Below are positions 50,601 to 64,000 of a stretch of DNA of 64,000 nt, piece after piece. The stretch spans positions 3,534,001 through 3,598,000 of the forward strand of contig CM052830.1 in assembly GCA_028534125.1 (NCBI GenBank), read 5' to 3'. Each line of letters opens with the position of its first letter. Position 1 is the stretch's first letter. Position numbers and translations under genes: made by a program. This stretch comes from Lama glama. Taxonomy: Eukaryota. The notes beneath the pieces are model-generated. The model had not been told where the DNA came from. It made no database searches and saw only the letters and a program-made list of their open reading frames with translations.

Positions 50601-53600
50601 GATCGATACAGGTGTTCCTGAAAGTGGCCAGAAGTCAAGAGATGCTGGCGCGCCGCCCCAGTGTCCCTTCCCGAAGGGCTCTGGTGATTGTGAATCACCC
50701 TACCTCCTCTGCCGGAGAACAGAGCCGCTCCAGGAGGGCAAATACGGAGCAGGATCTGCTGCAGAAGTGAATTCAGGGAAGAAGAAAAAGGCTTCAGAAG
50801 TTGCAGAAGTGCCAGCTTTTCCTTTGTGGAGAGAGAACAAAGGCATGAAAGACAAACTGATGAGATTCTCAGAGCCTTTGTGTGCAGCCCGCTTGGGTGG
50901 GGGTCACGGGCAGGATGCTCAGGGAAGACTCCTGTCAGACGACAAAGGCTGTGGAGAGGAATGGGCCTCCCAGGCTCGAGGCAGGTCAGAGGCTGCACAG
51001 ACACATCGATCAGAGTCAGGCGAGCAGCCTCAGGGGCCCCTGACCCGGCCCAGGCTGCTTGGGCTCCCTGGGGAAAACTCAGCCGTGGGAAACACTGGCT
51101 CTGAAGCCTTCCTCCTCTGCTTGGCAGGAGGTCTGGGCTGGGCGCCCGCCTCACAGGAAGGGGACCCGTGTCCAGAGCCACAGGAGGCCTCTGAGCATGT
51201 GGGGACGTGGCCAGCTGCTGCCCCTCCTCCCACGGGACCCAGCACTCCTCCCCAGCGTCACACCCCCACCAGTGTCATTTTGGAAACTGTGTGGCCAAGG
51301 TGAAGTCTGATCACCTTGACTGTGAGTCACCACCCTAAAATGCTCTGTTCACCTAAGTTCTCTACCCTGGGGGCCTTGTCCCTCAGGGGACATTTGGCTG
51401 TAGCTGGAGATCTTGTCACAGCTGGGGAAGGAGGAGATGCTGCTGGCATCTAGTGAGTAGAGGCCAGGGATGCTGTTAACCATCTTACAGTGCGGGGTCA
51501 GCCCCTCCCGATACAGAGTGGTCCAGCCCCAAACCGCAAGGGTGTTGAGGTTGAGAGTCCCCCGAATTCGGGTGCTCTTCTTTGTAACCCAGGGCCCTCT
51601 CGTGCCTCTCCTGATAGGAGACCATGATGGACCACGCCCTGCGCACCATCTCCTACATCGCGGACATCGGGAACATCGTGGTGCTGATGGCTAGACGCCG
51701 CATGCCGCGGTCAGCCTCTCAGGACTGCATCGAGACCACCCCCGGGGCCCAGGAGGGGAAGAAGCAGTATAAGATGATCTGCCACGTGTTCGAGTCTGAG
51801 GATGTAAGTAAACGCGCGGGCAGGATGTTCCCCTCCCCCGCCCCAGCCTTGCGGGGGCTCCGGGTTCCCAGGCGCCTTGGAAACCGTGTATCGGGGGCGG
51901 TCCTGTGCGCCGACGCGTCCAATGGAAGCAGCGAGTTTTCTAACCCGCTTTGAGTATGCAGAGACCGTGAACTCAGCTTCACGAAATAAATTCTTCAGGA
52001 GCTGTTTATACATCGAACCATTGATAAATATACCAAGGGCGTTCTTCGGCAAGATCCTTTAACAAACCCTTTGTGTCTCCCCAAATGAAGTGGCCCTGTT
52101 AAGATGCACACCCTCAGGCCCCAGGGTTGCTTTTGCTGGTGGCCATTTCAGGTCATAACAAGTTGGAAAATAGAGTGGACCCATGAACAGCACGGGTTTG
52201 AACTGAGCGGGTCCACTTACACGCAGACCTTTGTCAAGAGTAGATGCTACAGCGCTATACGATCTGAGTTGGTTAAATCTGTGGGTCCTGGACCGCGGAT
52301 TCGGAGAAACCGCGCATCTGGAGGACCGACTGTCACTCATACACAGATTCGTTTGGACTGTGCAGAGGGGAGCGCCCCTCACCCCCGTTTGGTGCGAGGG
52401 TCAACTGTAATTCTGAAGTTTAAAACACCACAGATTTGCTGAGACCATTAAACCCTTTGACTCCCTTGAACGGGATGAAAGCATCTTTCTCAGCCTGGAA
52501 GAGGGAGGAAAGGAGGGGCGGGGCAAGAGGTGAGCGGGGTCTCTGGGCTGCACTCCCCGCCCCGGCCCCCTGCAGGTCTTAGGGAAACCCTGGGAGGCAA
52601 GGGCTGAGCCGTTCTTGTGGTTGTTGCCAGAGTAGAGTTTTTTAAAATTCTCTCTCCACGGATGCTTGGAAAGGGCGTTCTCTTTCACTAAGGGACTCGA
52701 GGGTGTGTCAGGGACCTGGCACAGTGGGGAAGGGTCCCAGTGTTTTCACCTTTGAGTGGGCTGGTGGGTGGGGGTGGTGATCTTTTTGCTAAATTGAAGT
52801 CAACTACAAGGGCTTTGAAGCAATGACACCTTTATAGGGAAGGGAATTTAAATAGAGACCCACTAGTGCATGCACATGTTCCTTTCACCATTATGCAGAT
52901 ATCTGTGGACATCAGCATAGGCATTTTTGTGTGGCTAATGGCTTGAAGTCTCAGAGACCCAGCATGGGGGGAATGTCTGTATGTAAAGTGAAAGCCAGGG
53001 TTGATGAGCCACTAAAAAGTGCTGGGGGCAGGGCAACCTCCCCTTCCTGCCTTCACCTACCTGCAGGAGGCCAGCTCTGAGTGCTAGCCTCCAGTGCCAG
53101 CCCCAGGGTGAGGCCCCTGTGCACGCTCCCCATCTTTCTGGGTTCACAGCTGGCTGTGACCTGCAGAGCTGGGGAGTCCCAGCCCCCCAGAGAGCCCTCT
53201 GGAGCTGCCCCAGCTCAGGTGGGAGGGATGCAGGCACTCAAGGTGGACGGGGGGATGGGAGATTGCAGCCAGCAGCTGGTAAGATGCTGAGGTTCCCAGA
53301 AGCCCTGCTGTGGATGGCCTCACTACCCGCAGGATGAGGTGGTGGGGGCTATCCAGGCAGAGCTCAAGGAGGGTCTTCGGGGAGTGATGGGGTGAACAGA
53401 GCGATACTCTTACACCACCCTGCCCAGCCCGGGGACCTCAGTCAGGGTGAGATCCACCTGGAGGCCTGGGGGCAGCCGGTGTGAGACCCCAGTGGGGCAG
53501 GGCAGATCCAGGCCTTCACCCTCCACCATCCACCCTCCATCCTGGGACCAGCCTCCTCCTAGGAGCCCCGATCCCCAGCTTGGCTTGAGCCTAGGCCAGG

Positions 53601-56600
53601 CAGTCTCCGGGACTCGCCCCTACTGGGCTCCCATCGCCTGGGCTCCAACACATCTGGGCTAGTAGCGCCACCTGGTGGTCTAGGGGCTCCGCGCCTCCGG
53701 CTTGTCCTAGCTCTGAGCCCAGCTGCCAAACAGCCAGAACGCTGCTCCCAGGCACCGTCCTGGTCCTGGCGAGGGAACACTGGCTTCCTGTCCGCAGACC
53801 ATTGGGGGCTCAGTTTGGGAGGCCTGTCCCACCTAGAGTCAGCACCTGCCTAAGGGAGGGCTCCCTCTGGGCTCTGCCTCTGTTATCTGGCCCAGCCTGC
53901 TTTGAGGCAAAGACTTACTCATTTGCAGCCTGTGAATTGTGCAGCATGTAGAGAATGGGATTTAGGCCAAATCCCTCAATTCCACCTGTTTTTGGGTCAA
54001 CAGGACCCGAGGTTTGCTGGGGGTGCCCATGCTGAGTCCCCTTTTTGGCAGTGGGGAGGGAGGTGGCAGCAGGGAGTAGACCAGACCTGGGGCTCCTGCA
54101 GCCTGTGGCTGGGGGCGGGGCCTGGCCGTGGGCAGAGGGGTCACTGAGGGCCCCACTGCTCCCACTGCCCAGCTGCCAGTGTGTGCTTGACGTGTCCCAG
54201 GTGCTGGGTCCCTGGCCTTCGCCTCCCACTGGCCTTTATCTGCACACCAGCAGGTGGCATGTAAGCTCTTGCAGTGACTGCTCCGGGTCCAGGTCTCTGT
54301 GGTGTCAGAGACTCCACGAAGTCCATAGAAGTGGTCCCGTTGAATAGAAGGAAGTGATCTGCTCCATGATTTTCTCTGTGCTGTGTCCCCAAGGTCCCAT
54401 GCTTCTTGTCGGCCTGAGCTCAGCCAAGCCACACCTCCCTGGGAGAGAGGCCAGCCACACCCCTGCCTCCCCAGTCGAACTGAGTCCTGTTGCTTCGGAG
54501 AAATAAATATCGGGTGGACAGAGAGCACCTCAAAGTGCGATGCTCCCCAAAGAACACACCTAAAGTCTGTGGAATAAGATGGGTGGGAAGAAAATACAAC
54601 ACAGTCACCTATGAAAGCAATGAAGCTGATCATTAGCGAAGAATTCAGTTTCCCCAGACTTTATTCGAAACCGTGCTCTGTCTTAGAATGTCTGGGACTT
54701 AAAGCAGCTCAGGTCAGGGCCGCCAGGGGCGCCAGGCCCCCCAGGCAGCAGAAGGGGGAGAGCCCATAGTGGGATGTGGGTGGGAGACAGCTCTCGCGAG
54801 ACCAGGGCCACGGCCACCCAGGCAGGGAAGGGCCCTGTGCAGGCTGCCTCTGCATTGGCACCCAGCCCCACTGCGGCCCCTCCTCTCTGGGCCGGGCTCG
54901 TCTCCAGTGGGCGCCCCTCCCCGCAGGCCCAGCTGATCGCCCAGTCCATTGGCCAGGCCTTCAGTGTGGCCTACCAGGAGTTCTTGCGGGCCAATGGCAT
55001 CAACCCCGAGGACCTGAGCCAGAAGGAGTACAGTGACATCATCAACACGCAGGAGATGTACAACGACGACCTCATCCACTTCTCCAACTCGGAGAACTGC
55101 AAGGAGGTGAGGGTGGGGCTCCCCAGTCAGCTTGAGAGTGCGATAGGGGGGAGCGGGGAGTCGGGAGGGGACAGGTGGGCGGGCCTCCACAGCCACGTGC
55201 AGTCCCTCCTTCTCACAGCCTGAAGTGTGGCCCTGGGTCCATTCCACTCCTGCCTTTGCAGGGAGCATGTTTGTGTGAAATGAGGTGTCCTTGTAACAAA
55301 GAAGCTGATTACACTCAGTCCTAATGACCTTGAGAATGCGCCTCTTAATGCTGCTATTAGACGGATGTTCAATGCCCCTCCCCGCCCCAGCCCCGAAATG
55401 CTTCTGGAAAGCATCTTTGAAATGGGGATCTTGGGCAGTCTGCCCAGGGAAGTTTCAAAGCCCCCAGTACTGGAGGCCTTTGCGGTTCCAGTGGGACTGC
55501 TCAGGGGTCTTTAGAAAGTTCTCCTGAGACAGAGGAGCCAGTCCCTGGGGGTGGCCTGCACCCTGAGTCCTTGAGGGGTAAGTGAGTTGGCTTGTTGCTG
55601 AATGAATGACAGACAGCTTCCAAACAGTGACCCTGGAGACAGAGATAAATTGAAGGACTTTCCTAAATGAGAGCAGAAGGCCCGGCAGGGTTGGAGTCTG
55701 GACTCAGAGAACATTCCTCTGGCCTCCATGGGTTTGGGGAGGGTGAGGGGAGCAGACAGGCACACTGGAGCCCAGCTTAGAGCTGGGGGAGTCGATGCCA
55801 CATGGGGAGGGGTGGGAGACTGTGCTCTCAGTTCCCAGGATGATGGACAGGTCCCAGGTAGGCTTGGAGGCCAGGAGGAAGACCAGCCTCAGTTCCTAAG
55901 GCAGGGTCAGGCTGGTCCTTCTGTGGGTGCTTGACTGAGGCCCTGGCCCCTGTCCCCCTTTTGGGCACCTCTTACTTTCCTGATGTCCTTCCAGCTGCAG
56001 CTGGAGAAGCACAAGGGGGAGATCCTGGGAGTGGTGGTGGTGGAGTCCGGCTGGGGCTCCATCCTGCCCACCGTGATCCTGGCCAACATGATGAACGGCG
56101 GCCCAGCTGCCCGCTCGGGGAAGCTGAGCATCGGGGACCAGATCATGTCCATCAATGGCACCAGCCTGGTGGGGCTGCCCCTTGCCACCTGCCAGGGCAT
56201 CATCAAGGTGGGTGCCCGGGGCCCTGCCTGGCTTTATCCCTGCTGCGTGGTCATCCTGGCTGACCCAGGAGGAAGCCGGGTCCAGGCAGACCCACCCAGT
56301 GACTCTGAGCCAGACACTGTCAGCATCCCTGATGTCAGAGAGGGGCCTGGGCTGCCCCCTGGTGGGGGGACGTGGGGGTAGGGATGTCTGCTTTCACTTA
56401 GCCCAGTCCTGAGCCACGTGGACCCCAGGCAAGCGCCGAGGACCCGTAGATGTCAGGTGACCAACTTGTCCTGCCTTTCACAGGTGATAGCCTCACCTCC
56501 TAGGCAAACGTGGAGGTTAGGGTCACCTTGCACGGATCTGAGCTGGGCGGCTGCTCTGACCGGCTTACCCGTGAGCGTACAGCTTTGGGAGGTGCTGAGC

Positions 56601-59600
56601 GGCCTGTCCCCAGAGAGGATCACGCAGAGGGGACACAAACTGGTGGGACCGGGGCCCACTGCGGGTCTGAGAGAGTCCCGGGCGGAAGGATCAGGCAGCC
56701 GTGACCGGAGGTCTCAGCACTGCAGTGCCTTTGCTCTTTCCGGGGTATCCGGACACCTCTGCCTGCGGGGAGTTGTCCCGTGGCTCGTCCACGCCCGCAG
56801 CCCCCGCAGTGGTCTTGCTGAAGGAGGATGCGCCCCCCTCCTCCCTGTCACCTGACAGAGGGCGCTCCTGAGGCCAGAAGGCCCCAAGAACTGGCTTCTG
56901 GACCTGGTGACCCAGGGGTACCGTTTAGCTAGACAGACAGACATGAAAGAAGCCTCAATCAGAGGTGCCAGAGGCTTAGCCGGCCAGGCCCCTCCCTCTG
57001 AGGGAGGCAGCTCTCAGTCGTCACTCGGGCGCTGATGGGCTGTGCGCGCATGCGTGGCCGTGCACGTTTGTGCGCATGCGCATCTGCGGGCGCGCCTGAG
57101 CAGAGGAGCTTTGCGGTAGCCGCAGCGTCGTTCGGTTTAGGCCGCTCTTCTCGTCCTACCCGACCCCAGAACCGTGGCCTGCAGCATCCGCTGTCCTCTG
57201 GGGTCCAGGGTCGCCCTTGGCTCCAGGTGGCCTGTCTCGGTGCAGACACCAGAGCCCCTGTTGGCAGACCCGCTGAGCCGGCGGCTCCCGGTCCTCGCCC
57301 CGCCAGCAGCGCACGAGACCATCACGGGAGGATGCTTGTTTTGAGGAAGGTGACCCCACAGTCCTTCCAAACAGGAAGTCCTCTTGCTCGCAGTGTGGCG
57401 AGGGCCCCGAGTGCTGGCCCGTCAGTTGTGCACAGTGGCCTTTGGGGCCTGGCGTCTGGCCCCCGGGGCAGCGTGGTTTTGCCCAGGTCTAAGGGCGCAC
57501 CAGAGCGCGGTGAGCTGCGGCCACCTGGGATGCCCAGCACCCCTGCACCCGGTCGGGGAGATGCACGTACCCATGCACAGAGGGGCCTGCCTGGGTTCAG
57601 TCCCCCTGCAACCCGAGCCTGTGAGGTCGTCTGAGACCCACCTGTGACTCCTGTTCTGTGCTCTGCAGGGGCTGAAGAACCAGACGCAGGTGAAGCTCAA
57701 CATTGTCAGCTGTCCACCCGTCACCACCGTCCTCATCAAGCGGCCGGACCTCAAGTACCAGCTGGGCTTCAGCGTGCAGAACGGAATTGTGAGTCCGCGC
57801 TCGGCCCTGGGCAGCCTCTGCCGAGCTCACGTGTGGCTTGGTGCAGGGAACAGGGATGGCAGCTGTCCGTCCCCAACCCTGGAACCACCCTTGTTGGATG
57901 GGGCAGGTCCTGGCCAGTGACCCCCCGTTCCTGGGCTGCAGGCAGGCGGGTTGGGGGGAGGGCTGGCCGCGTGGGTAACCCCAGAGTCCCTGGAAACGTC
58001 TGCCAACTTCTGAGTTCTGCATGAGCACTTTTTCTGTTTTCAGTGTCATTACACCCAAAGCACAATGCGTTAGTTTGCAGATAGGCCCAGGATGGCCCAC
58101 TTAACACTCCCTTCTAAACAAGTACCCCCTGTCTCTCTCATGGCATCATTCAGGGAGTCACAAAGTCCACTGCTGGGAGACCCCAGCCTCCCTCCTAGAA
58201 GTGGGGCCTGTGGCCCCGAGTTCTGTGGGTGCGCCTCATTGAGGAAGGCCTGCCATCCGTGTTTGTGTGTCTGTGTGCGTGTGCACGCGGCCCTCTCCCA
58301 GCCCCTCCTGCTCCCCATCTATCCCCTCTGCCAGCCTGCCCCCTAGATTCCAGCTCAGGTCCCCCGCCAGGGTCTGGGTCCATCCTCTGCAGCCCCCACT
58401 TCTTTCTCCCTTCCTGCCCCTGTTCCCGCTTTCCCTTCTCCCCTGGAACTCCCACCGTGAGGGAGGAAAGTGCCCCTAGGGATTTACCGGAGACACACCT
58501 GCTCCATGTCCCAGCTTCTGTCGGGAGCAAGGGGGTCCTGCCTGACACTGGGCCTGGCCAGGAAGTGGGCCAGATCACCCTGAAGCACCCTCTTTAGGAT
58601 CCTCAAAGAGCCAGGTATACTGGGCACAAGGTGCCCTTAAATCAGTCCCCTGGGGGCCGTGCAGGGAGAGTAGAAGTTCCTCCTTAGCGCCGGGTGGGGT
58701 TTCTGGGCATCAGGTGAGCAGAGCCTTCACCAGACAGAACAGATGCTCCCTTTCTGGACAGTGGGTGCCACGGGCAGCCCGCTTCTCTATCTCAGCCACA
58801 CTGGCCGTGTCCTGTCTGGCCCGAGAGCCTGAGATCCAGGACTGTGACCCACTCTGTGCAGGAGTCCAGGTGGCCGGGCAGCAGTGACCTTGGGCTGTGA
58901 CGTCAGCTTGCACCCTATCTCCTTCCAGACAGAGAGGGACCCGAGGGCTGGGGGGACCCCGAGGACTTCGGGCCCGCACTGGGACTTTCACACACTCAGA
59001 AAGTAGGTCTGGAAAGACCTGCAGCGTAGCGTCTGTGACGAGGCCAAACTCATAAACCAGAGGACCCATGGGAGTCCTGTGGTGGTGCAGGGCCGGCCTG
59101 CGGTCAGTGGCCTTTTGGCTTGCCTCAGCCTGAAAAGGATACCAGGCCAGTGCAGTGAGAGAGCAGGGGGCAGGGTGGAGCCGTCCATCTCTGGGTGGGA
59201 GAGGTGGCCTTGGCCGGGGGTTGGATGGGAGCTGGCGGTGACACAGGTGGGAGCCCCAGGTGAGGGCGGGTGCGTTCAGCACAGGATGCAGAGGAGAGTC
59301 CTCGGGCGGGATGAAAGGAAAAAGGAACAGTGAGTAGGGAAGGGCTGGACGTCCCACCTGCAGATACGCCTCCTGTGGGCAGGCTGACCCCTGATCTTGT
59401 AGGATGCTGCTCAGAGTTATATGAGGACCCCTAAAAAGTCCTAAAAAGCTCACGAGGTGAGAGTTGTACCGGTAGCATTTTTCAGATGGAGGAAACCGTG
59501 AGGACCAAGGCCTTACAGGTTCGAGGCTGCCGGATGACGTTACAGGGAGGGTCTGGGCGCTCGGGGGACCGGGTCCCCCAGCCTGGGCTTCTCCTCCTGC

Positions 59601-62600
59601 CCGACCTCGGGCTTGGCCTCCCTCATCCTCAGACACAGCTGATGCGGTGCAGCCTTAGGGCAGGTGGCTGGGACGTCAGGGGCTCCAGGGGGCTCAGGGA
59701 CACGGGTCCAGGTGCCCAGGGCTGAGTGCCACGGCTGGGGTGCATGGGAAAGACCACCAGCGGCTTCGAGGTTGTTCTCAGGAAGGCACAGCCCCAGGGA
59801 CATGGCTGTTTGACCTGGGCCTGCCTCTGCCCTTGTGCTGGGGAGGCGACGGGGGGATTAGTAAACCCAGCCCTTCCTGTGCCCTCCTGCCACCCTGCCT
59901 CTGGGATGTCAGTGCTCCTCCTGCTGCGGTGCCCTCACTCCCACACCTCCTGTGGCTCCCAGGTGCAGAGGGCCCACAGAATGGGAGGCTGCTCTTCCCT
60001 CCCTGATCTCTGCACAGACTGCCCCTTTCCGATACCTGATCTTTAGTGAATTCACCAACGGGGGATCTCACGCTTAGGGGCTGCACCATTGTTTCCCCAA
60101 ACTCTTTCCATTCATCAGCTCATGAAATCACCCCTCCCTATGTGGAGAGAATCATGACTGTCACCTGAGAGAGGAGCAGTGTGGCTGGTGGAGAACCTTC
60201 CAGAATGGGCCTGACCTGTGTATACCCCCAGCCCTCCACACTGCCCGACCCAGGAACAGAGGCCCTGGGATGGCTGGGGCCAGATTCCTGGCCAGCGGGG
60301 TGGGGACCTGAGGGCCCAGATGGGTCTCCCCAAGCATTTTCGAACATTTTCCAAATCATAAACCTCCCCATTGCTGAGTCAGTGGACGGCAGGTAGCAGT
60401 GCTCGTCCTGTGGGGCTTCTCCCCCCACCGGTTCACTCTCCTCCCGGTCTCTGGGGGCAGGAGGAGTGTTGGCAGGGTGGCGGGAGCTCTGTGCTGACCT
60501 GACACCCGTGTCCCCTAGATCTGCAGCCTCATGCGAGGGGGCATCGCAGAGCGGGGTGGCGTCCGTGTGGGCCACCGCATCATCGAGATCAACGGGCAGA
60601 GCGTGGTGGCCACGGCGCACGAGAAGATTGTTCAGGCGCTGTCCAACTCGGTCGGAGAGGTGAGCGGTCCCTTTCCTGAAGCCAGACCAGGCTCTTGGGG
60701 CCGCTGGGCCCATATGTTTTCATGATGACATCAAGCCCCTGAGGGTGGGCGGAGGTGCTGGGTGAAAGCCACGGGTCCCCCCAGAGCAAACCCCCTCCCC
60801 GGGAGAGCCTGTCCCAGCAGGGCCCCCGCATGGCTTGCTGGCGGGTGTGCTCCCTCCGGGACCTCCTGGCGCGCATCAGCTGAGCAGGGGGTGTGTCTCC
60901 CACCAGGTTGCTGGGTGGCAGGTGGGATCCCTGTCCTCGCTTTGGTCACTGTGCCGCTACCGACGGGAGGGTAAAGGTGGCAGACACATCTCCTCTGACA
61001 CTGCTTCTGGAGATGGACTGAACATGCTCAGTCTGGGGCCCTGCCCTGCCCAGTGGGGACACCCCCACCTGCCATCCCCACCCATGAAGCAGGCTGGCCC
61101 TGCTGCTCTGCCCTTACCCCCTCACTGGCTTTGCCCTTCCTCCTGTTTTTTTCTGCCACCAGGGCGATGCTGGCATGAGGCTGGATGGGGCCGGGGGTGG
61201 GAGCTCAGGAGCAAGCAGGATACCTCGGGAGGAGGATTAAGATGCTGGGGGGTTGGTGACAGCACGGTCCTGTGAAGGAGGCCTCCGCTGGGCGGGGGGG
61301 ATGGGTGTGTAGGGCCTGTGAGGTAAGCAGGCAGAGTGAATGAGCAGGCTCTCCTGGGAGAAGCATGGGTGACAGCAGCCCAGAAGGGGCAGATGGAGAC
61401 AGAGCTGAAGGGGTGGGCAGCACAGGGAGCAGCTGTGAAGGCAGGTGCTGGCCCAGAAGTTTAGGTTTGACTCTGAGGGTGGGGGGAGCCCTGGGTGGCT
61501 GTGGCTTGGGCTCTGGCCTGACCCCAGGTGGGTGGATGGGGTGCTGTCTTCTGAGGGCCTTCAGATCATGTCTGGTCAGATCCCCTTTCCTGGGACTGCA
61601 TTGCCCTACTTGGTGTCTGTGAAACTCCCAGACCTGGGGGAGGAGGCCTGTTTCCCTGCATGGGTGGGAGCAGGTGACTCTAGAGGGAGAGGGGCCAGGT
61701 AGACACCATTGACTTCCTTCTACAAATGGCTTCAAAGAAAGGGAAATCCAGTTTCCTAAGTAGAAGCTTCGAAATGGTTGACCTGCTGGAGCCAACAGTC
61801 TCACACCTACCAAGGAATCACTCAGGTGGGGGAGCCGGGCTGGGAGCAGGGGAAATGTTTCCAACTCTTCAGACCTGAGAGGAATTGCTATTCAGAGAGG
61901 CTCGAATGTAGGCTAAGGGTGTGAACATCCCTTCAGCCTGGCTGTGTTGCTGGTGATTAGGTTCTCGTCTGGTTGCAGAAAGAATTCAGAGAGGAGACAC
62001 AGAGGTTAAGACAGTAAAGTGAGGATTTATTAAGGGATAGGACGCTCTCAAGGGGAGAATGGGCAGACTCAGGTGAGCAGCTGCTCTAAGTTTCTTTGGC
62101 AAGCTGGTTTTATAGGGTGTGAAAATGAATGGGCAGGATATTCATTGGGGAGAGAAGAGTTTGGGGTCATATTCCCTGATTTTCATCCTAGCCCCACCTT
62201 CTGGAGGGGAAGAGGGATTTTTGTCCTTATTTAGTCTGGGTCAGAAGTGTCACAGCATCAGTGCATGCTGGGTACTTCTAATCTGCAAGACTGATTTTAT
62301 TGTAATGAGGGTATAATGAGCAAAAGGTTCCATTTGGAGACTGGAGATTCCTGCCTTTCCCCACCTTTCTTTGTCGACCTCCAGGACTCTTGTCACCCCA
62401 AGTTGTGTGTTATCAGTCCCAAGGTTCCTACTTTTCTCTGTCTGCCAAGGGACCCATGTTTATGTGATGTAGGGTTTCCTGCCATTTGTCCCTGTGTCCT
62501 CTCCTCTTTTGCCTAGTTTCTGCCATTTGGCCTGTGTCCTTCTTCCTCTACTCACATCTAGCTGTCTGCCTGCTCTAACAGCTGAACCTTACACTTGACC

Positions 62601-63529
62601 AGCTAGTCCTGGGGGGAGAATGTCTGCACTTTCCATCAAGCATCCCTGAGCACATTTGAAACATGAGCCACTGATCAACAAGATCTCATGTTTTGACACG
62701 CCTTGGGGAGGGGGGGTTTCAGACTGAGGAATTAAAGAATGAATCTTCTGATGGATGAAGCCATCCCAGGCTGATGAAAGAGCTGAAATCTAAATTGATC
62801 AAACCAATCCTGGTGTTGAGCACAGGTAGGGAGTCTGTGTGGTCAGATGAGGCTGGAGACCTGCTTGCCTGAGGAAGGGCTGGCCTGAGGGATGGCCGTG
62901 CCCCCAGAAGTCTCTCCCTGGGCACTGGAGGTCTGCCGGGCCACCTCCTTGGGATTTGGGGTGTGTGTCCCACACAGTCGGCCTCCCTGGGGAGTGGTTT
63001 TGGTGCTTTGCTTGTGTGCCTGCCTTCTGGCGCCAGGAAGTGAGGCCAGACCCAAAGTGTGTGTGTGGGGGGGGAGCTCGAGGCCCCATACCCCAGCACA
63101 TGTACTTTGTGTGTGAGCCTCTGATTCCCAGTGTGGTTTCTAAGGAGGCCAGGGCACCCCTGCCTGTCCCCAGCTCAGTGGGAAAACTGTCATCATGTGA
63201 AAAGTCCAATTTTTCACACCCCTGGTGTCAGCTCCAGCTGAAGGGAAACCAGCACTGGACTGTGTGTAAAACCCCCTGCAGATCTGGTGGGGTGCCCAGG
63301 TGAGTCCCCAGGTCAGGCAGGTCACGCTGCCTTCGCTCTGAGCGCAGGGCCTTCACACAGGAAATGCTCGGAGGGTTTGCATCCAGCCACATCGAGGGGA
63401 GGGAGCGGGGAGAGGTGGAGGCAGGAAGCCGGGCCAGCCCCTCTCTCTTGTTGACAGATCCACATGAAGACCATGCCAGCCGCCATGTTCAGGCTCCTCA
63501 CAGGCCAGGAGACCCCGCTCTACATCTAG
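4684..63529 (+). CDS. APBA2: APBA2 / Mint2 / X11-like, full spliced CDS: join(4684-5634,27962-28042,29317-29353,42092-42237,42964-42999,45821-45907,51618-51803,54927-55106,55995-56207,57669-57788,60519-60659,63458-63529) = 2250 nt, 749 aa
   Basis: Exons found by hand with AG/GT boundaries and consistent phases; lengths 951+81+37+146+36+87+186+180+213+120+141+72=2250. Translation matches recalled Mint2 ([55 protein letters not shown], end QETPLYI). Confidence 0.97.
5758..5933 (-). mobile_element. tRNA-derived SINE (Vic-1-like)
   Basis: Reverse complement of ggagagggtatagctcagtggcggagcgcatgcttagcatgc...; T-rich tail. Confidence 0.85.
6580..6725 (-). mobile_element. Old L1 3' end fragment
   Basis: gtataatttgatgaattttgg...aaccaccaccacaatcaagata. 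Confidence 0.6.
7700..8680 (-). mobile_element. L1 (L1MB/MA-like) fragment, partly N
   Basis: gttgctggatcatatggtaac, ttacattcccaccaccagtg, gttttgatttgcatttcctaatgattag. Confidence 0.85.
8682..8905 (-). mobile_element. Younger L1 3' end fragment
   Basis: attgaagtatagttgatttacaatgttgtgttagtttc... Confidence 0.8.
9394..9559 (-). mobile_element. Vic-1-like SINE
   Basis: Reverse-complement tRNA-like head and T-rich tail. Confidence 0.85.
9588..9695 (+). mobile_element. Vic-1-like SINE with 14-bp TSD
   Basis: A box agctcagtgg, B box ggttcaatccc; TSD aatgctgagtagca (9574-9587) / aatgctgaatagca (9696-9709). Confidence 0.9.
10676..11586 (+). mobile_element. TcMar-Tigger element (MER82-like) with decayed transposase N-terminus
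   Basis: MER82-like termini, right end gttgactg|TA; peptide remnants [12 protein letters not shown] and [12 protein letters not shown] resemble psq/CENP-B HTH. Confidence 0.7.
16518..16538 (-). promoter_or_regulatory. RE1/NRSE (REST site)
   Basis: Minus strand TTCAGCACCAAGGACAGCGCA vs consensus TTCAGCACCNNGGACAGCGCC. Confidence 0.8.
17470..17830 (+). mobile_element. L1MB-like 3' end
   Basis: gagttagtgtttaatgggtacag, gtggtgatgattgcacaac, aaattttattttatgtatatttacc. Confidence 0.75.
17851..17955 (+). mobile_element. Vic-1-like SINE inserted in an L1 A-tail
   Basis: ggggggaatagctcagtgg...cctccattaaaaaaa; flanks aagaaagaaa(g/a)ggct. Confidence 0.85.
19520..22545 (-). mobile_element. L1MB-like fragment split by Tigger1 (L1 parts about 19520-19735 and 22116-22545)
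   Basis: L1 sequence reads continuously across the junction: tctgttttctctcta | tgtaggtttgcctatttc. Confidence 0.75.
19736..22115 (-). mobile_element. Tigger1 DNA transposon, near full length (about 2.38 kb incl. Ns), decayed
   Basis: 5' terminus ...gtatgcctg at 22115; transposase remnant [25 protein letters not shown]; TA at the left flank. Confidence 0.88.
24808..25170 (-). mobile_element. MaLR solo LTR (MLT1A-like)
   Basis: tctcactgttctggaggc...aagtccaagatcaagg...tggtgtctggtgag...gggctccaccct. Confidence 0.75.
26425..26600. repeat. AT-rich low-complexity patch with 4 copies of TTATTTATAA/TTATAAATAA
   Basis: Copies at 26434, 26451, 26491, 26537. Confidence 0.6.
26975..27612 (+). mobile_element. 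L1MB-like 3' end
   Basis: actgttggtggaaatgtaaaatgg...aagagttctggagatgg. Confidence 0.85.
27628..27748 (+). mobile_element. Vic-1-like SINE with perfect 15-bp TSD
   Basis: TSD AAGAATAATAATAAA at 27613-27627 and 27749-27763; intact A/B boxes. Confidence 0.92.
27962..28042 (+). CDS. APBA2: APBA2 coding exon 2 ([27 protein letters not shown])
   Basis: tttacag|GTT...GAG|gtaact, 81 nt, phase 0/0. Confidence 0.95.
28382..28577 (-). mobile_element. MER20-like hAT-Charlie MITE
   Basis: ggcaccattgacatctggg...tagcaacc...gttgtgaccaccaaa...attgccaagtgtcccc...gagaaccact. Confidence 0.7.
28790..28985 (-). mobile_element. Short L1 3' end
   Basis: T-tail + ttttacaatgttgtgtcaaattcc...cctgtgctacacagta. Confidence 0.75.
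29317..29353 (+). CDS. APBA2: APBA2 coding exon 3 ([12 protein letters not shown], 37 nt)
   Basis: cctaacag|ACA...GCTG|gtaagt; phase 0/1; not visible in the ORF track. Confidence 0.93.
30665..31170 (-). mobile_element. 5'-truncated L1 with perfect 16-bp TSD
   Basis: AAGAAGTTCACTTTTC at 30649-30664 and 31171-31186. Confidence 0.92.
33470..34590 (-). mobile_element. L1 3' portion, largely N, interrupted by a SINE
   Basis: Same L1 3' UTR phrases as 1300-1950. Confidence 0.82.
33577..33667 (-). mobile_element. Vic-1-like SINE nested in L1
   Basis: TSD cattgtatgtt (33566-33576) / cattatatgtt (33668-33678). Confidence 0.87.
35319..35481 (-). mobile_element. Vic-1-like SINE
   Basis: TSD cagcgtcttctct (35306-35318) / cagcatcttctct (35482-35494). 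Confidence 0.88.
36549..36588. repeat. Imperfect (CAT)n microsatellite
   Basis: catcatcgtcatcatcatcatc. Confidence 0.6.
37110..37230 (+). mobile_element. MIR-like SINE remnant
   Basis: gtgaccttgggcaaa...ttcttatttgtcaaatgagg...gaggattggatgg. Confidence 0.5.
39478..39498 (+). promoter_or_regulatory. Second, weaker RE1-like site
   Basis: CTCAGCACCATGGAGAGCAGC fits NTYAGMRCCNNRGMSAG. Confidence 0.45.
39517..39874 (-). mobile_element. MaLR solo LTR (MLT1A-like)
   Basis: aaacaacagaaa...ctcacgattctagaagctggaag...gagggctccacc...gacctaatcacc. Confidence 0.75.
42092..42237 (+). CDS. APBA2: APBA2 coding exon 4 (start of PTB domain)
   Basis: cttcag|TTCCAGGC...GTCAAG|gtaggg, 146 nt, phase 1/0; [23 protein letters not shown]...SRVK. 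Confidence 0.95.
42964..42999 (+). CDS. APBA2: APBA2 36-nt cassette exon in the PTB domain ([12 protein letters not shown])
   Basis: Long pyrimidine tract, gctgctcag|AGG...GCG|gtgtgt; symmetric phase 0; needed for the 749-aa form. Confidence 0.9.
44355..44475 (-). mobile_element. Short L1 3' end
   Basis: ttattgacgtatagtcagttgacaatgttgtgtcaatttctgg. Confidence 0.75.
45137..45364 (-). mobile_element. Short L1 3' end with 10-bp TSD
   Basis: CTGTGACTTT at 45127-45136 and 45365-45374. Confidence 0.8.
45821..45907 (+). CDS. APBA2: APBA2 coding exon 6 (NSEGDAQ...NADTQ)
   Basis: ttccttag|AAC...CAG|gtgagt, 87 nt. Confidence 0.95.
51354..51562 (+). mobile_element. MER20-like MITE
   Basis: ggggacatttggc...ttgtcacagctgggg...tgctgctggcatctagtgagtagaggccagggatgctg...gaggttgagag. 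Confidence 0.72.
51618..51803 (+). CDS. APBA2: APBA2 coding exon 7 (ETMMDHAL...FESED)
   Basis: ctgatag|GAG...GAT|gtaagt, 186 nt. Confidence 0.95.
52173..52407. mobile_element. Tigger2-family MITE (MER8/Tigger2a-like), 235 bp
   Basis: TA|gagtggacccatgaaca ... gagggtcaactg|TA: inverted termini plus TA TSD. Confidence 0.8.
53663..53681 (-). promoter_or_regulatory. CTCF motif
   Basis: Minus strand AGACCACCAGGTGGCGCTA, near-consensus core. Confidence 0.65.
54244..54262 (+). promoter_or_regulatory. CTCF-like motif
   Basis: Core CCAGCAGGTGGCA at 54247-54259. Confidence 0.45.
54927..55106 (+). CDS. APBA2: APBA2 coding exon 8 (AQLIAQSIG...NCKE; end of PTB)
   Basis: cccgcag|GCC...GAG|gtgagg, 180 nt. 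Confidence 0.95.
55995..56207 (+). CDS. APBA2: APBA2 coding exon 9 (most of PDZ1)
   Basis: cttccag|CTG...AAG|gtgggt, 213 nt. Confidence 0.95.
57045..57082. promoter_or_regulatory. Paired NRF1 motifs in an intragenic CpG-rich patch
   Basis: CGCGCATGCGTG at 57045-57056 and perfect TGCGCATGCGCA at 57071-57082. Confidence 0.6.
57669..57788 (+). CDS. APBA2: APBA2 coding exon 10 (end of PDZ1, start of PDZ2)
   Basis: ctctgcag|GGG...ATT|gtgagt, 120 nt. Confidence 0.95.
60519..60659 (+). CDS. APBA2: APBA2 coding exon 11 (PDZ2)
   Basis: cccctag|ATC...GAG|gtgagc, 141 nt. Confidence 0.95.
61945..62580 (-). mobile_element. ERV solo LTR (ERV1-type by 4-bp TSD), 636 bp
   Basis: TGTT...AACA termini; GCTG TSD at 61941-61944 and 62581-62584; minus-strand TATAAAA at 62108-62114 and AATAAA at 62026-62031. 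Confidence 0.85.
63458..63529 (+). CDS. APBA2: APBA2 last coding exon ([23 protein letters not shown])
   Basis: ttgacag|ATC ... TAG at 63527-63529. Confidence 0.95.
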   Translation: MHMKTMPAAMFRLLTGQETPLYI

Positions 63530-64000
63530 GCTGACCGCCTGCACCCCGAGGAGCCGGAGCCGGACCCAGGACCTGACCCAGACCCCAGAGCCCCCAAGGA
63601 CCCGGGCTCCCCAGAAGGCCATGTCCTCACCACCCACTTTTTTTTTTGGACCCAGAGGGGTACGTCTTTACCCAAGGAGGGTCGCAGGAACCCATCTTCG
63701 TGGAACAATCGAGTATTTTGGCATGTCCTGAATTTTCTCGTGGCGGGCAGGGTTTAACTGTACCTCTGCGTGCTATGGAGTCTTCCCTTCCTGGAGCCGT
63801 GGAGGGTGAACGTGGCTGCTTCCAGATGTGGCCACAAACGTGAAGGGAGCCGCTCGAAGGCAGCGAGCTCTGGGGGGCAGTGGCGATGCCCTCACTGGGG
63901 CTCTGGGGTCCCGCAGGGACAGCAGTGGCCCAGAAGGGCTGCTTTGGTGCGAGCGTGGGCAGTCAGCTCTCAGGATGTGACTTGTAATGACAGTGAGGAA
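63530..64000 (+). other. APBA2: APBA2 3' UTR (partial; no AATAAA seen in the window)
   Basis: Follows the stop codon. Confidence 0.8.
63555..63607 (+). repeat. Degenerate hexamer tandem (CCNGAC-like) in the 3' UTR
   Basis: ccggag ccggac ccagga cctgac ccagac cccaga. Confidence 0.55.

What the first reader, a model, noticed from the sequence alone, without database searches (positions are those of the whole stretch)
57040..57668. Candidate NRF1-driven intragenic promoter and in-frame mini first exon giving a PDZ2+tail Mint2 micro-isoform
Seen: a CpG-rich patch in the intron after the PDZ1 exon contains a perfect NRF1 palindrome (57071-57082) and a second near-match (57045-57056). The first ATG downstream of them is at 57332 (A at -3). 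It reads ATG CTT GTT TTG AGG AAG and is followed by AAG|GTGACC, a phase-0 donor-like site 319 nt before the phase-0 acceptor at 57668. Known: NRF1 is a methylation-sensitive factor of CpG promoters, and the Mint/X11 C-terminal tail folds back onto PDZ1. Inference: splicing would give 116 aa (MLVLRK + residues 640-749) with PDZ2 and a free PLYI tail but no intact PDZ1, PTB or Munc18 site, a possible trans-acting or dominant-negative form switched by methylation. The donor is imperfect (+5 C), so this may be coincidence.
Basis: partly seen in the sequence, partly recalled or inferred. Interest (0 to 1): 0.7.

Follow-up and report, generated by a model that had tools for sequence, protein, structure and literature searches.

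The report
Spliced CpG island inside Mint2 intron
A CpG island with NRF1 binding motifs sits in a late intron of the synaptic adaptor gene APBA2 (Mint2); in one RNA library of a related species it is spliced onto the next exon through a rare GA donor that breaks the reading frame, so it is likely an internal promoter for short, mostly non-coding RNAs rather than the source of the proposed 116-residue mini-protein.

Summary
The sequence facts hold: the CpG island (56889-57478), the perfect NRF1 palindrome, ATG 57332, the AAG|GTGACC site and the 116-aa arithmetic. One RNA library (X1) of a species about 96% alike covers this intron and has a contig joining the island to the next exon. A second donor at 57509 is inferred from an exact graph break. 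Both donors put ATG 57332 out of frame (a 6-aa uORF, or the +1 frame). One base, 57349 (A there, G here), weakens one donor register and strengthens the other, so the in-frame form stays possible in this species only. ATG-plus-donor pairs of this strength occur at about 0.6 per kb by chance. No start site, methylation state or NRF1 binding was shown. RNA also covers about 840 nt upstream of the motifs, so intron retention with cryptic donors is a real rival. Best reading: a likely methylation-gated intragenic promoter, as in mouse Mgl2.

The parts
56208..57668 (+). APBA2/Mint2 intron between the main PDZ1 exon and the PDZ1-end/linker exon (phase 0)
   Evidence: Donor AAG|GTGGGT and acceptor CAG| in the sequence; gene identity from PDB 3suz Mint2 match of the PDZ2 exon, E 1.4e-27
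56889..57478 (.). Intragenic CpG island, 590 bp, GC 0.65, o/e 0.68, single copy
   Evidence: own-genome search of 56900-57800 finds only itself and a 77% paralogous exon
57045..57056 (.). NRF1-like site (core CGCATGCG at 57047)
   Evidence: no difference listed here in the related species
57071..57082 (.). Perfect NRF1 palindrome; one central change in the related species keeps the consensus (consensus recalled)
57332..57334 (+). ATG (A at -3, C at +4): 6-aa uORF with donor 57345, 116-aa in-frame ORF with donor 57349, 171-aa +1-frame ORF with donor 57509
57343..57351 (+). GA-type donor after 57345 (GAG|GAAGGT here, GAG|GAAAGT in the related species); junction to 57669 seen in library X1
   Evidence: 57-nt contig, depth 15.8, whose loose end matches 57670-57696 with one silent change; a 57-nt piece is what this joint predicts
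57347..57355 (+).
   Evidence: 2.28 bits here, -0.72 with A at 57349 (recalled frequencies); no graph split at 57350 in X1
57507..57515 (+). GT donor GCG|GTGAGC; use inferred, junction contig not shown
   Evidence: X1 contigs end at 57510 and start at 57481, as this donor predicts; rank 3 of 88
57669..57788 (+). Exon for the last strand of PDZ1, the linker and the start of PDZ2 (40 aa)
60519..60659 (+). PDZ2 core exon; holds the first in-frame Met after the island (66-aa product)
63458..63529 (+). Last coding exon, tail ending PLYI and stop

Best explanation
A CpG island with two NRF1 motifs lies in a late APBA2 intron and is spliced onto the next exon in a related species; it likely works as a weak, methylation-gated internal promoter whose short transcripts carry only the last three exons and are predicted to be mostly non-coding. 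Shown: the island, the motifs, RNA-library cover of the intron, and one junction (57345^57669, GA-AG). Inferred: a second donor at 57509; loss of methylation lets NRF1 bind; transcription starts near the motifs, perhaps in both directions; without the strong upstream donor, U1 uses the weak donors at the island's 3' end. ATG 57332 then opens a 6-aa uORF or the +1 frame. Any Mint2-frame product would need re-initiation at the Met in the PDZ2 exon (66 aa, lacking the start of PDZ2) or a CTG start. In the window's species G at 57349 may move part of the splicing to the in-frame GT.
For: Only wholly intronic island of 500 bp or more in 64 kb. Motif cluster rare in shuffles (P 0.002; two cores P 5e-5), with consensus kept across about 3.7% divergence. 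Junction contig of the exact predicted length and a second break at a predicted donor. The donors lie 263 and 427 nt downstream of the palindrome, and exons of 1.1-1.3 kb would be needed if they were extensions of the PDZ1 exon (inference). Library X11 (RNA is a guess) has one isolated contig starting at 57163 (weak). CpG transitions are 2.7-fold over non-CpG transitions inside the island against 7-fold upstream. Precedent: intronic NRF1 motifs drive truncated Mgl2 mRNA when DNA is unmethylated, and NRF1 knock-down abolishes it (PMC7305168, passages).
Against: In X1 one contig covers about 840 nt upstream of the motifs. A rough depth budget implies about 51-54 there against 89 at 57346 (the tool warns contig depth is flat), so a start at 57090-57330 cannot be the only source. 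Only 2 of 4 laid libraries gave contigs, and the junction comes from one. No GC box, ETS, CCAAT, YY1 or TATA motif in the island. Only 6 of 15 sampled perfect palindromes lie in island-like DNA, against 1 of 8 controls, p 0.35. The CpG-transition contrast is 4/79 vs 6/64, p 0.34. The 230-nt low-divergence patch is not significant, P 0.15. Mouse Apba2 is not called up in Dnmt3a/b double-knockout embryos (log2FC 0.36). No data from the window's own species.
Confidence: 0.5

Rival explanations
1. No internal promoter: the intron is slowly spliced or retained in full-length APBA2 pre-mRNA, and cryptic donors near the acceptor are used at low level. The extended PDZ1 exon meets a stop 57 codons into the intron, so these RNAs would be decay substrates. 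The island is then a gene-body CpG patch or an enhancer.
For: The whole laid intron up to 57646 is covered in X1, including the upstream part, and an unspliced path remains past both donors (depth 42.6). Shares of 0.22-0.24 in 8 runs are about what full cover gives at this divergence. Read-through stop. The region is GC-rich with several CpG patches.
Against: The long X1 contig reaches only about 67 nt beyond 56300, short of the PDZ1 donor node (about 121 nt needed), unless an indel or variant explains it. A GA donor must compete with the true 5.4-bit donor in the same molecule. X11 shows cover only from 57163.
Confidence: 0.3
2. One reading: an NRF1 promoter, ATG 57332 and the GT at 57350 give a 116-aa PDZ2-plus-tail protein that acts in trans on full-length Mint2.
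For: Frame and length are right. G at 57349 raises this donor by 3 bits and lowers the GA register by 2.5 bits relative to the related species, where splicing does occur 4 nt away. The G/A change is silent for Lys. Isolated X11 PDZ2 with its tail folds, and the tail blocks PDZ1 (PMC10017356, passages).
Against: Junction absent in X1. ATG-plus-donor pair at chance density. No hit for the intron-coded frame among 12 and 1,602 candidates. None of 80 short relatives of the exon is a spliced form with a short new N-terminus (weak, because clustering hides such forms). A 2-nt insertion at 57269 breaks the upstream part of the frame in the related species.
Confidence: 0.12
3. The cover is DNA carried in the library, and the joint is a deletion allele or a reverse-transcriptase switch.
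For: No silent control stretch was laid. The joint has 3 nt of microhomology and is non-canonical. It comes from one library.
Against: The joint ends at the canonical acceptor and begins at a near-perfect U1 match (7.9 bits outside the dinucleotide). X1 holds only 177 million letters of contigs, too few for genome-wide DNA at depth about 60 (inference). The second break fits a GT donor.
Confidence: 0.08

Closest known systems
NRF1-driven cryptic intragenic promoter in mouse Mgl2 intron 6 (PMC7305168, passages and supplement search)
   Same: CpG-rich intronic site with repeated NRF1 motifs; would yield a 5'-truncated mRNA
   Different: Mgl2 was shown by DNase-seq, ChIP and knock-down in methylation mutants. 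Here only motifs and a splice junction in an untreated library are shown. Mouse Apba2 is not called up in that data set.
Orphan/intragenic CpG islands as alternative promoters or enhancers (PMC8286816, passages)
   Same: Island in a gene body, away from the annotated start
   Different: Moderate CpG density (o/e 0.68), below 5 of the 6 island-like sampled palindromes; chromatin state unknown
U2-type GA-AG introns of FGFR genes (PMC4176328, passages)
   Same: GA first dinucleotide with U1-consensus flanks, next to a GT alternative
   Different: FGFR sites are conserved across evolution and lie in coding exons. This one differs by one base between two related species, overlaps a GT 4 nt downstream, and changes the frame.
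Mint/X11 isoforms (Mint1 826, PMC3667844, passages) and the autoinhibited PDZ tandem (PDB 1u3b; PMC10017356, passages)
   Same: Same family; a variant is reported in brain and testis; the tail binds PDZ1
   Different: Mint1 826 is an 11-aa deletion in the PTB domain. No PDZ2-only Mint transcript turned up in the listings of searches.

Membership tests
Intragenic CpG-island promoter (Mgl2 type) | CpG island by sequence | tested here: met
   590 bp, GC 0.65, o/e 0.68
Intragenic CpG-island promoter (Mgl2 type) | Repeated NRF1 motifs, kept in a relative | tested here: met
   one relative only
Intragenic CpG-island promoter (Mgl2 type) | RNA from the island spliced to the downstream exon | tested here: met
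   One contig in one library of a related species
Intragenic CpG-island promoter (Mgl2 type) | Transcription starts inside the island | tested here: inconclusive
   Contigs cannot show starts; X1 covers upstream, X11 begins at 57163
Intragenic CpG-island promoter (Mgl2 type) | NRF1 occupancy and methylation switch | not testable with these tools
   Only a non-significant CpG-transition proxy
U2-type GA-AG intron | Intron ends GA..AG with U1-consensus flanks | tested here: met
   Of four possible cuts only GA..AG ends at the acceptor; 7.87 bits in the related species, 5.32 here
U2-type GA-AG intron | Absent from matched DNA and used at 1:20 or more of the main form across samples | not tested
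   No DNA run laid; one library; contig depth 15.8 vs 73.3 is only a rough guide
Protein-coding short Mint2 isoform | In-frame junction used | tested here: not met
   No split at 57350 in the related-species library; own species untested
Protein-coding short Mint2 isoform | Conserved or recorded N-terminal peptide | tested here: inconclusive
   No hits; a 6-aa peptide is below the search's reach

The most novel reading that the evidence does not exclude
An NRF1 promoter inside APBA2 feeds two overlapping donors, GA and GT, four bases apart. The single base 57349 switches the output between a 6-aa uORF transcript in the related species and a translated 116-aa PDZ2-plus-tail Mint2 in this species: a protein isoform born from a one-letter shift of U1 register, able to block PDZ1 of full-length Mints in trans.
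Probability: 0.1. Interest if true: 0.72.

Novelty: new member of a known kind. Interest (0 to 1): 0.38.

Why it matters
Mint2 links APP, Munc18 and calcium-channel traffic (established knowledge, recalled), and its tail closes PDZ1. An internal start giving only the last three exons has not turned up in the paper searches made here. The locus also offers a compact natural test of non-canonical donor choice: a GA donor and an overlapping GT donor whose balance depends on one base that differs between two close species, with the reading frame as the read-out. If only intron retention is at work, it is an ordinary case of cryptic splicing.

Tried and rejected
Libraries X3 and X5 gave no contigs in the lay (0 of 2; the tool says a filter can cause this), so they are not counted as support. 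My first reading of share 0.24 as a short exon was dropped: about 0.19-0.24 is what full cover gives at this divergence. No reads were laid on the flanking exons, so whether the island RNA is joined to the PDZ1 exon stays open. Orthologous introns from other mammals: a scan of metagenome contigs found none (74 pattern matches, 0 confirmed). One search used a wrong exon end (57790) and a wrong frame; both were redone. The donor ranking and null are unaffected, except the row for that exon's own donor. Rfam gave 0 matches. No tandem repeat lies in the island. A transposon origin is not supported (with that search's caveat on common words). The low-divergence patch 57158-57387 was rejected as not significant. 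No fold or complex job was sent, as isolated PDZ2 is already solved (1u39, 1y7n). The list of intragenic-initiation genes in PMC7305168 was not readable as a list in the held, cut supplement. PMC1779574 was seen only as a listing and is not used.

Full report
Setting. The window holds APBA2 (Mint2) on the + strand; the exon 60519-60659 matches all 47 aligned residues of PDB 3suz Mint2. The finding lies in the phase-0 intron 56208-57668, followed by exons 57669-57788, 60519-60659 and 63458-stop, which code 110 aa ending PLYI. The 901 nt around it are single copy apart from a 77% paralogous exon.

Observation. The CpG patch is a formal island, 56889-57478, GC 0.65, o/e 0.68, the only wholly intronic one of the 3 segments of 500 bp or more in the window. 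The NRF1 consensus (recalled) appears in 0.19% of 20,000 shuffles of the patch, and two CGCATGCG cores in 0.005%. These are post-hoc figures, and both sites lie in short purine/pyrimidine-alternating runs. The genome has 232 perfect copies against 129 of a matched control. Of the first 15 copies 6 are in island-like DNA, against 1 of 8 controls (p 0.35). So the motif is a modest promoter sign, not proof. No GC box, ETS, YY1, CCAAT or TATA motif was found in the island. The ATG-and-donor part is at chance level: the donor scores 2.28 bits, rank 5 of 88, and such pairs occur at 0.56-0.63 per kb (base frequencies recalled).

RNA evidence. Of 24 runs listed for 56980-57668, 20 hold it wholly or in part; 11 are on record as RNA and 3 more are guessed RNA. 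I laid 4 of these 14 on 56300-57668, and 2 gave contigs. Library X1 comes from a species about 96% alike here (50 substitutions). Its contigs cover 56300-57346 (depth 58.7), 57317-57510 (73.3) and 57481-57646 (42.6). A 57-nt contig (depth 15.8) follows the intron to 57346 and then continues with 27 letters that match 57670-57696 with one silent change. A joint 57345^57669 has 3 nt of microhomology and predicts a 57-nt piece; of the four possible cuts only GA..AG ends at the acceptor. GA-AG U2-type introns are known from FGFR genes (PMC4176328, passages). The break at 57510/57481 is exactly where a donor GCG|GTGAGC after 57509 would split the graph. Its junction contig was not shown, so this donor is inferred; a variant at that place could also do it. 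A donor after 57349 would split the graph at 57350, and no split is there. The break at 57646 is unexplained. X11 (RNA is a guess) has one contig, 57163-57384, unspliced.

Coding outcome. With donor 57345, ATG 57332 reads six codons and stops; with donor 57509 it runs in the +1 frame (171 aa in this window). The phase-0 frames upstream of both donors are closed by stops near 57274 and 57351 and hold no ATG. The next ATG in the exons is an in-frame Met at tail residue 45, giving 66 aa without the start of PDZ2. Searches with the intron-coded frame found nothing among 12 and 1,602 candidates. The 80 short relatives of the exon are almost all genomic read-throughs, and none has a short spliced N-terminus (weak evidence). 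The 116-aa form would probably fold, since isolated X11 PDZ2 with its tail does and the tail blocks PDZ1 (PMC10017356, passages). Its only support is that G at 57349 favours the GT register in this species.

Promoter or retention. For a promoter: the island; both motifs kept in the relative; donors 263 and 427 nt downstream of the palindrome; the 1.1-1.3 kb exons that the alternative needs; X11's start; and fewer CpG transitions inside the island (4/79 vs 6/64, p 0.34). Against: X1 covers about 840 nt upstream of the motifs, with an implied depth near 51-54 against 89 at 57346 (rough). This could be retained intron, a start further upstream, or divergent antisense RNA; unstranded contigs cannot tell these apart. 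Read-through from the PDZ1 exon stops after 57 codons. I put the promoter at 0.5, retention with cryptic donors at 0.3, the functional micro-isoform at 0.12 and artefact at 0.08.

Comparison and novelty. It works like the NRF1-dependent cryptic promoter in mouse Mgl2 intron 6 (PMC7305168, passages). Membership is not established, because start site, binding and methylation are untested, and mouse Apba2 is not called up in the knockout table. Orphan islands are common (PMC8286816, passages). The listings of paper searches showed no internal APBA2 transcript; subscription journals and genome-browser annotations were not searchable. Look-ups of this scan's notes gave nothing that bears on it. Verdict: a real, spliced intronic island of a known kind, with an unusual GA/GT donor pair; the proposed protein is unsupported but testable. 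Interest 0.38.

Noticed in passing
window 56474: The related species has an 11-nt insertion here that forms a consensus donor (CAG|GTAAG) on the minus strand; the X1 contig does not branch there. On the + strand 56481-56483 is an acceptor-like CAG, also without a branch.
   Followed up: partly
window 57084-57096: G57089C in the related species makes a third GCGC-NN-GCGC core, so it has three NRF1-like elements in about 50 bp; this could also be plain (CG)n drift.
   Followed up: partly
window 57507-63532: The +1 frame of the last three exons is open to just past the normal stop, so donor 57509 would give a 171-aa alternative ORF that escapes decay; open +1 frames are expected in GC3-rich exons.
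   Followed up: partly
window 57617-57646: An unexplained graph break in X1 at 57646.
   Followed up: no
window 51470-52409: A second intragenic CpG island (o/e 0.83-0.88) around a PTB exon, denser in CpG than the one studied.
   Followed up: no
L024 43 and 604: AATAAA signals just beyond the window's end, likely the APBA2 polyA sites.
   Followed up: no
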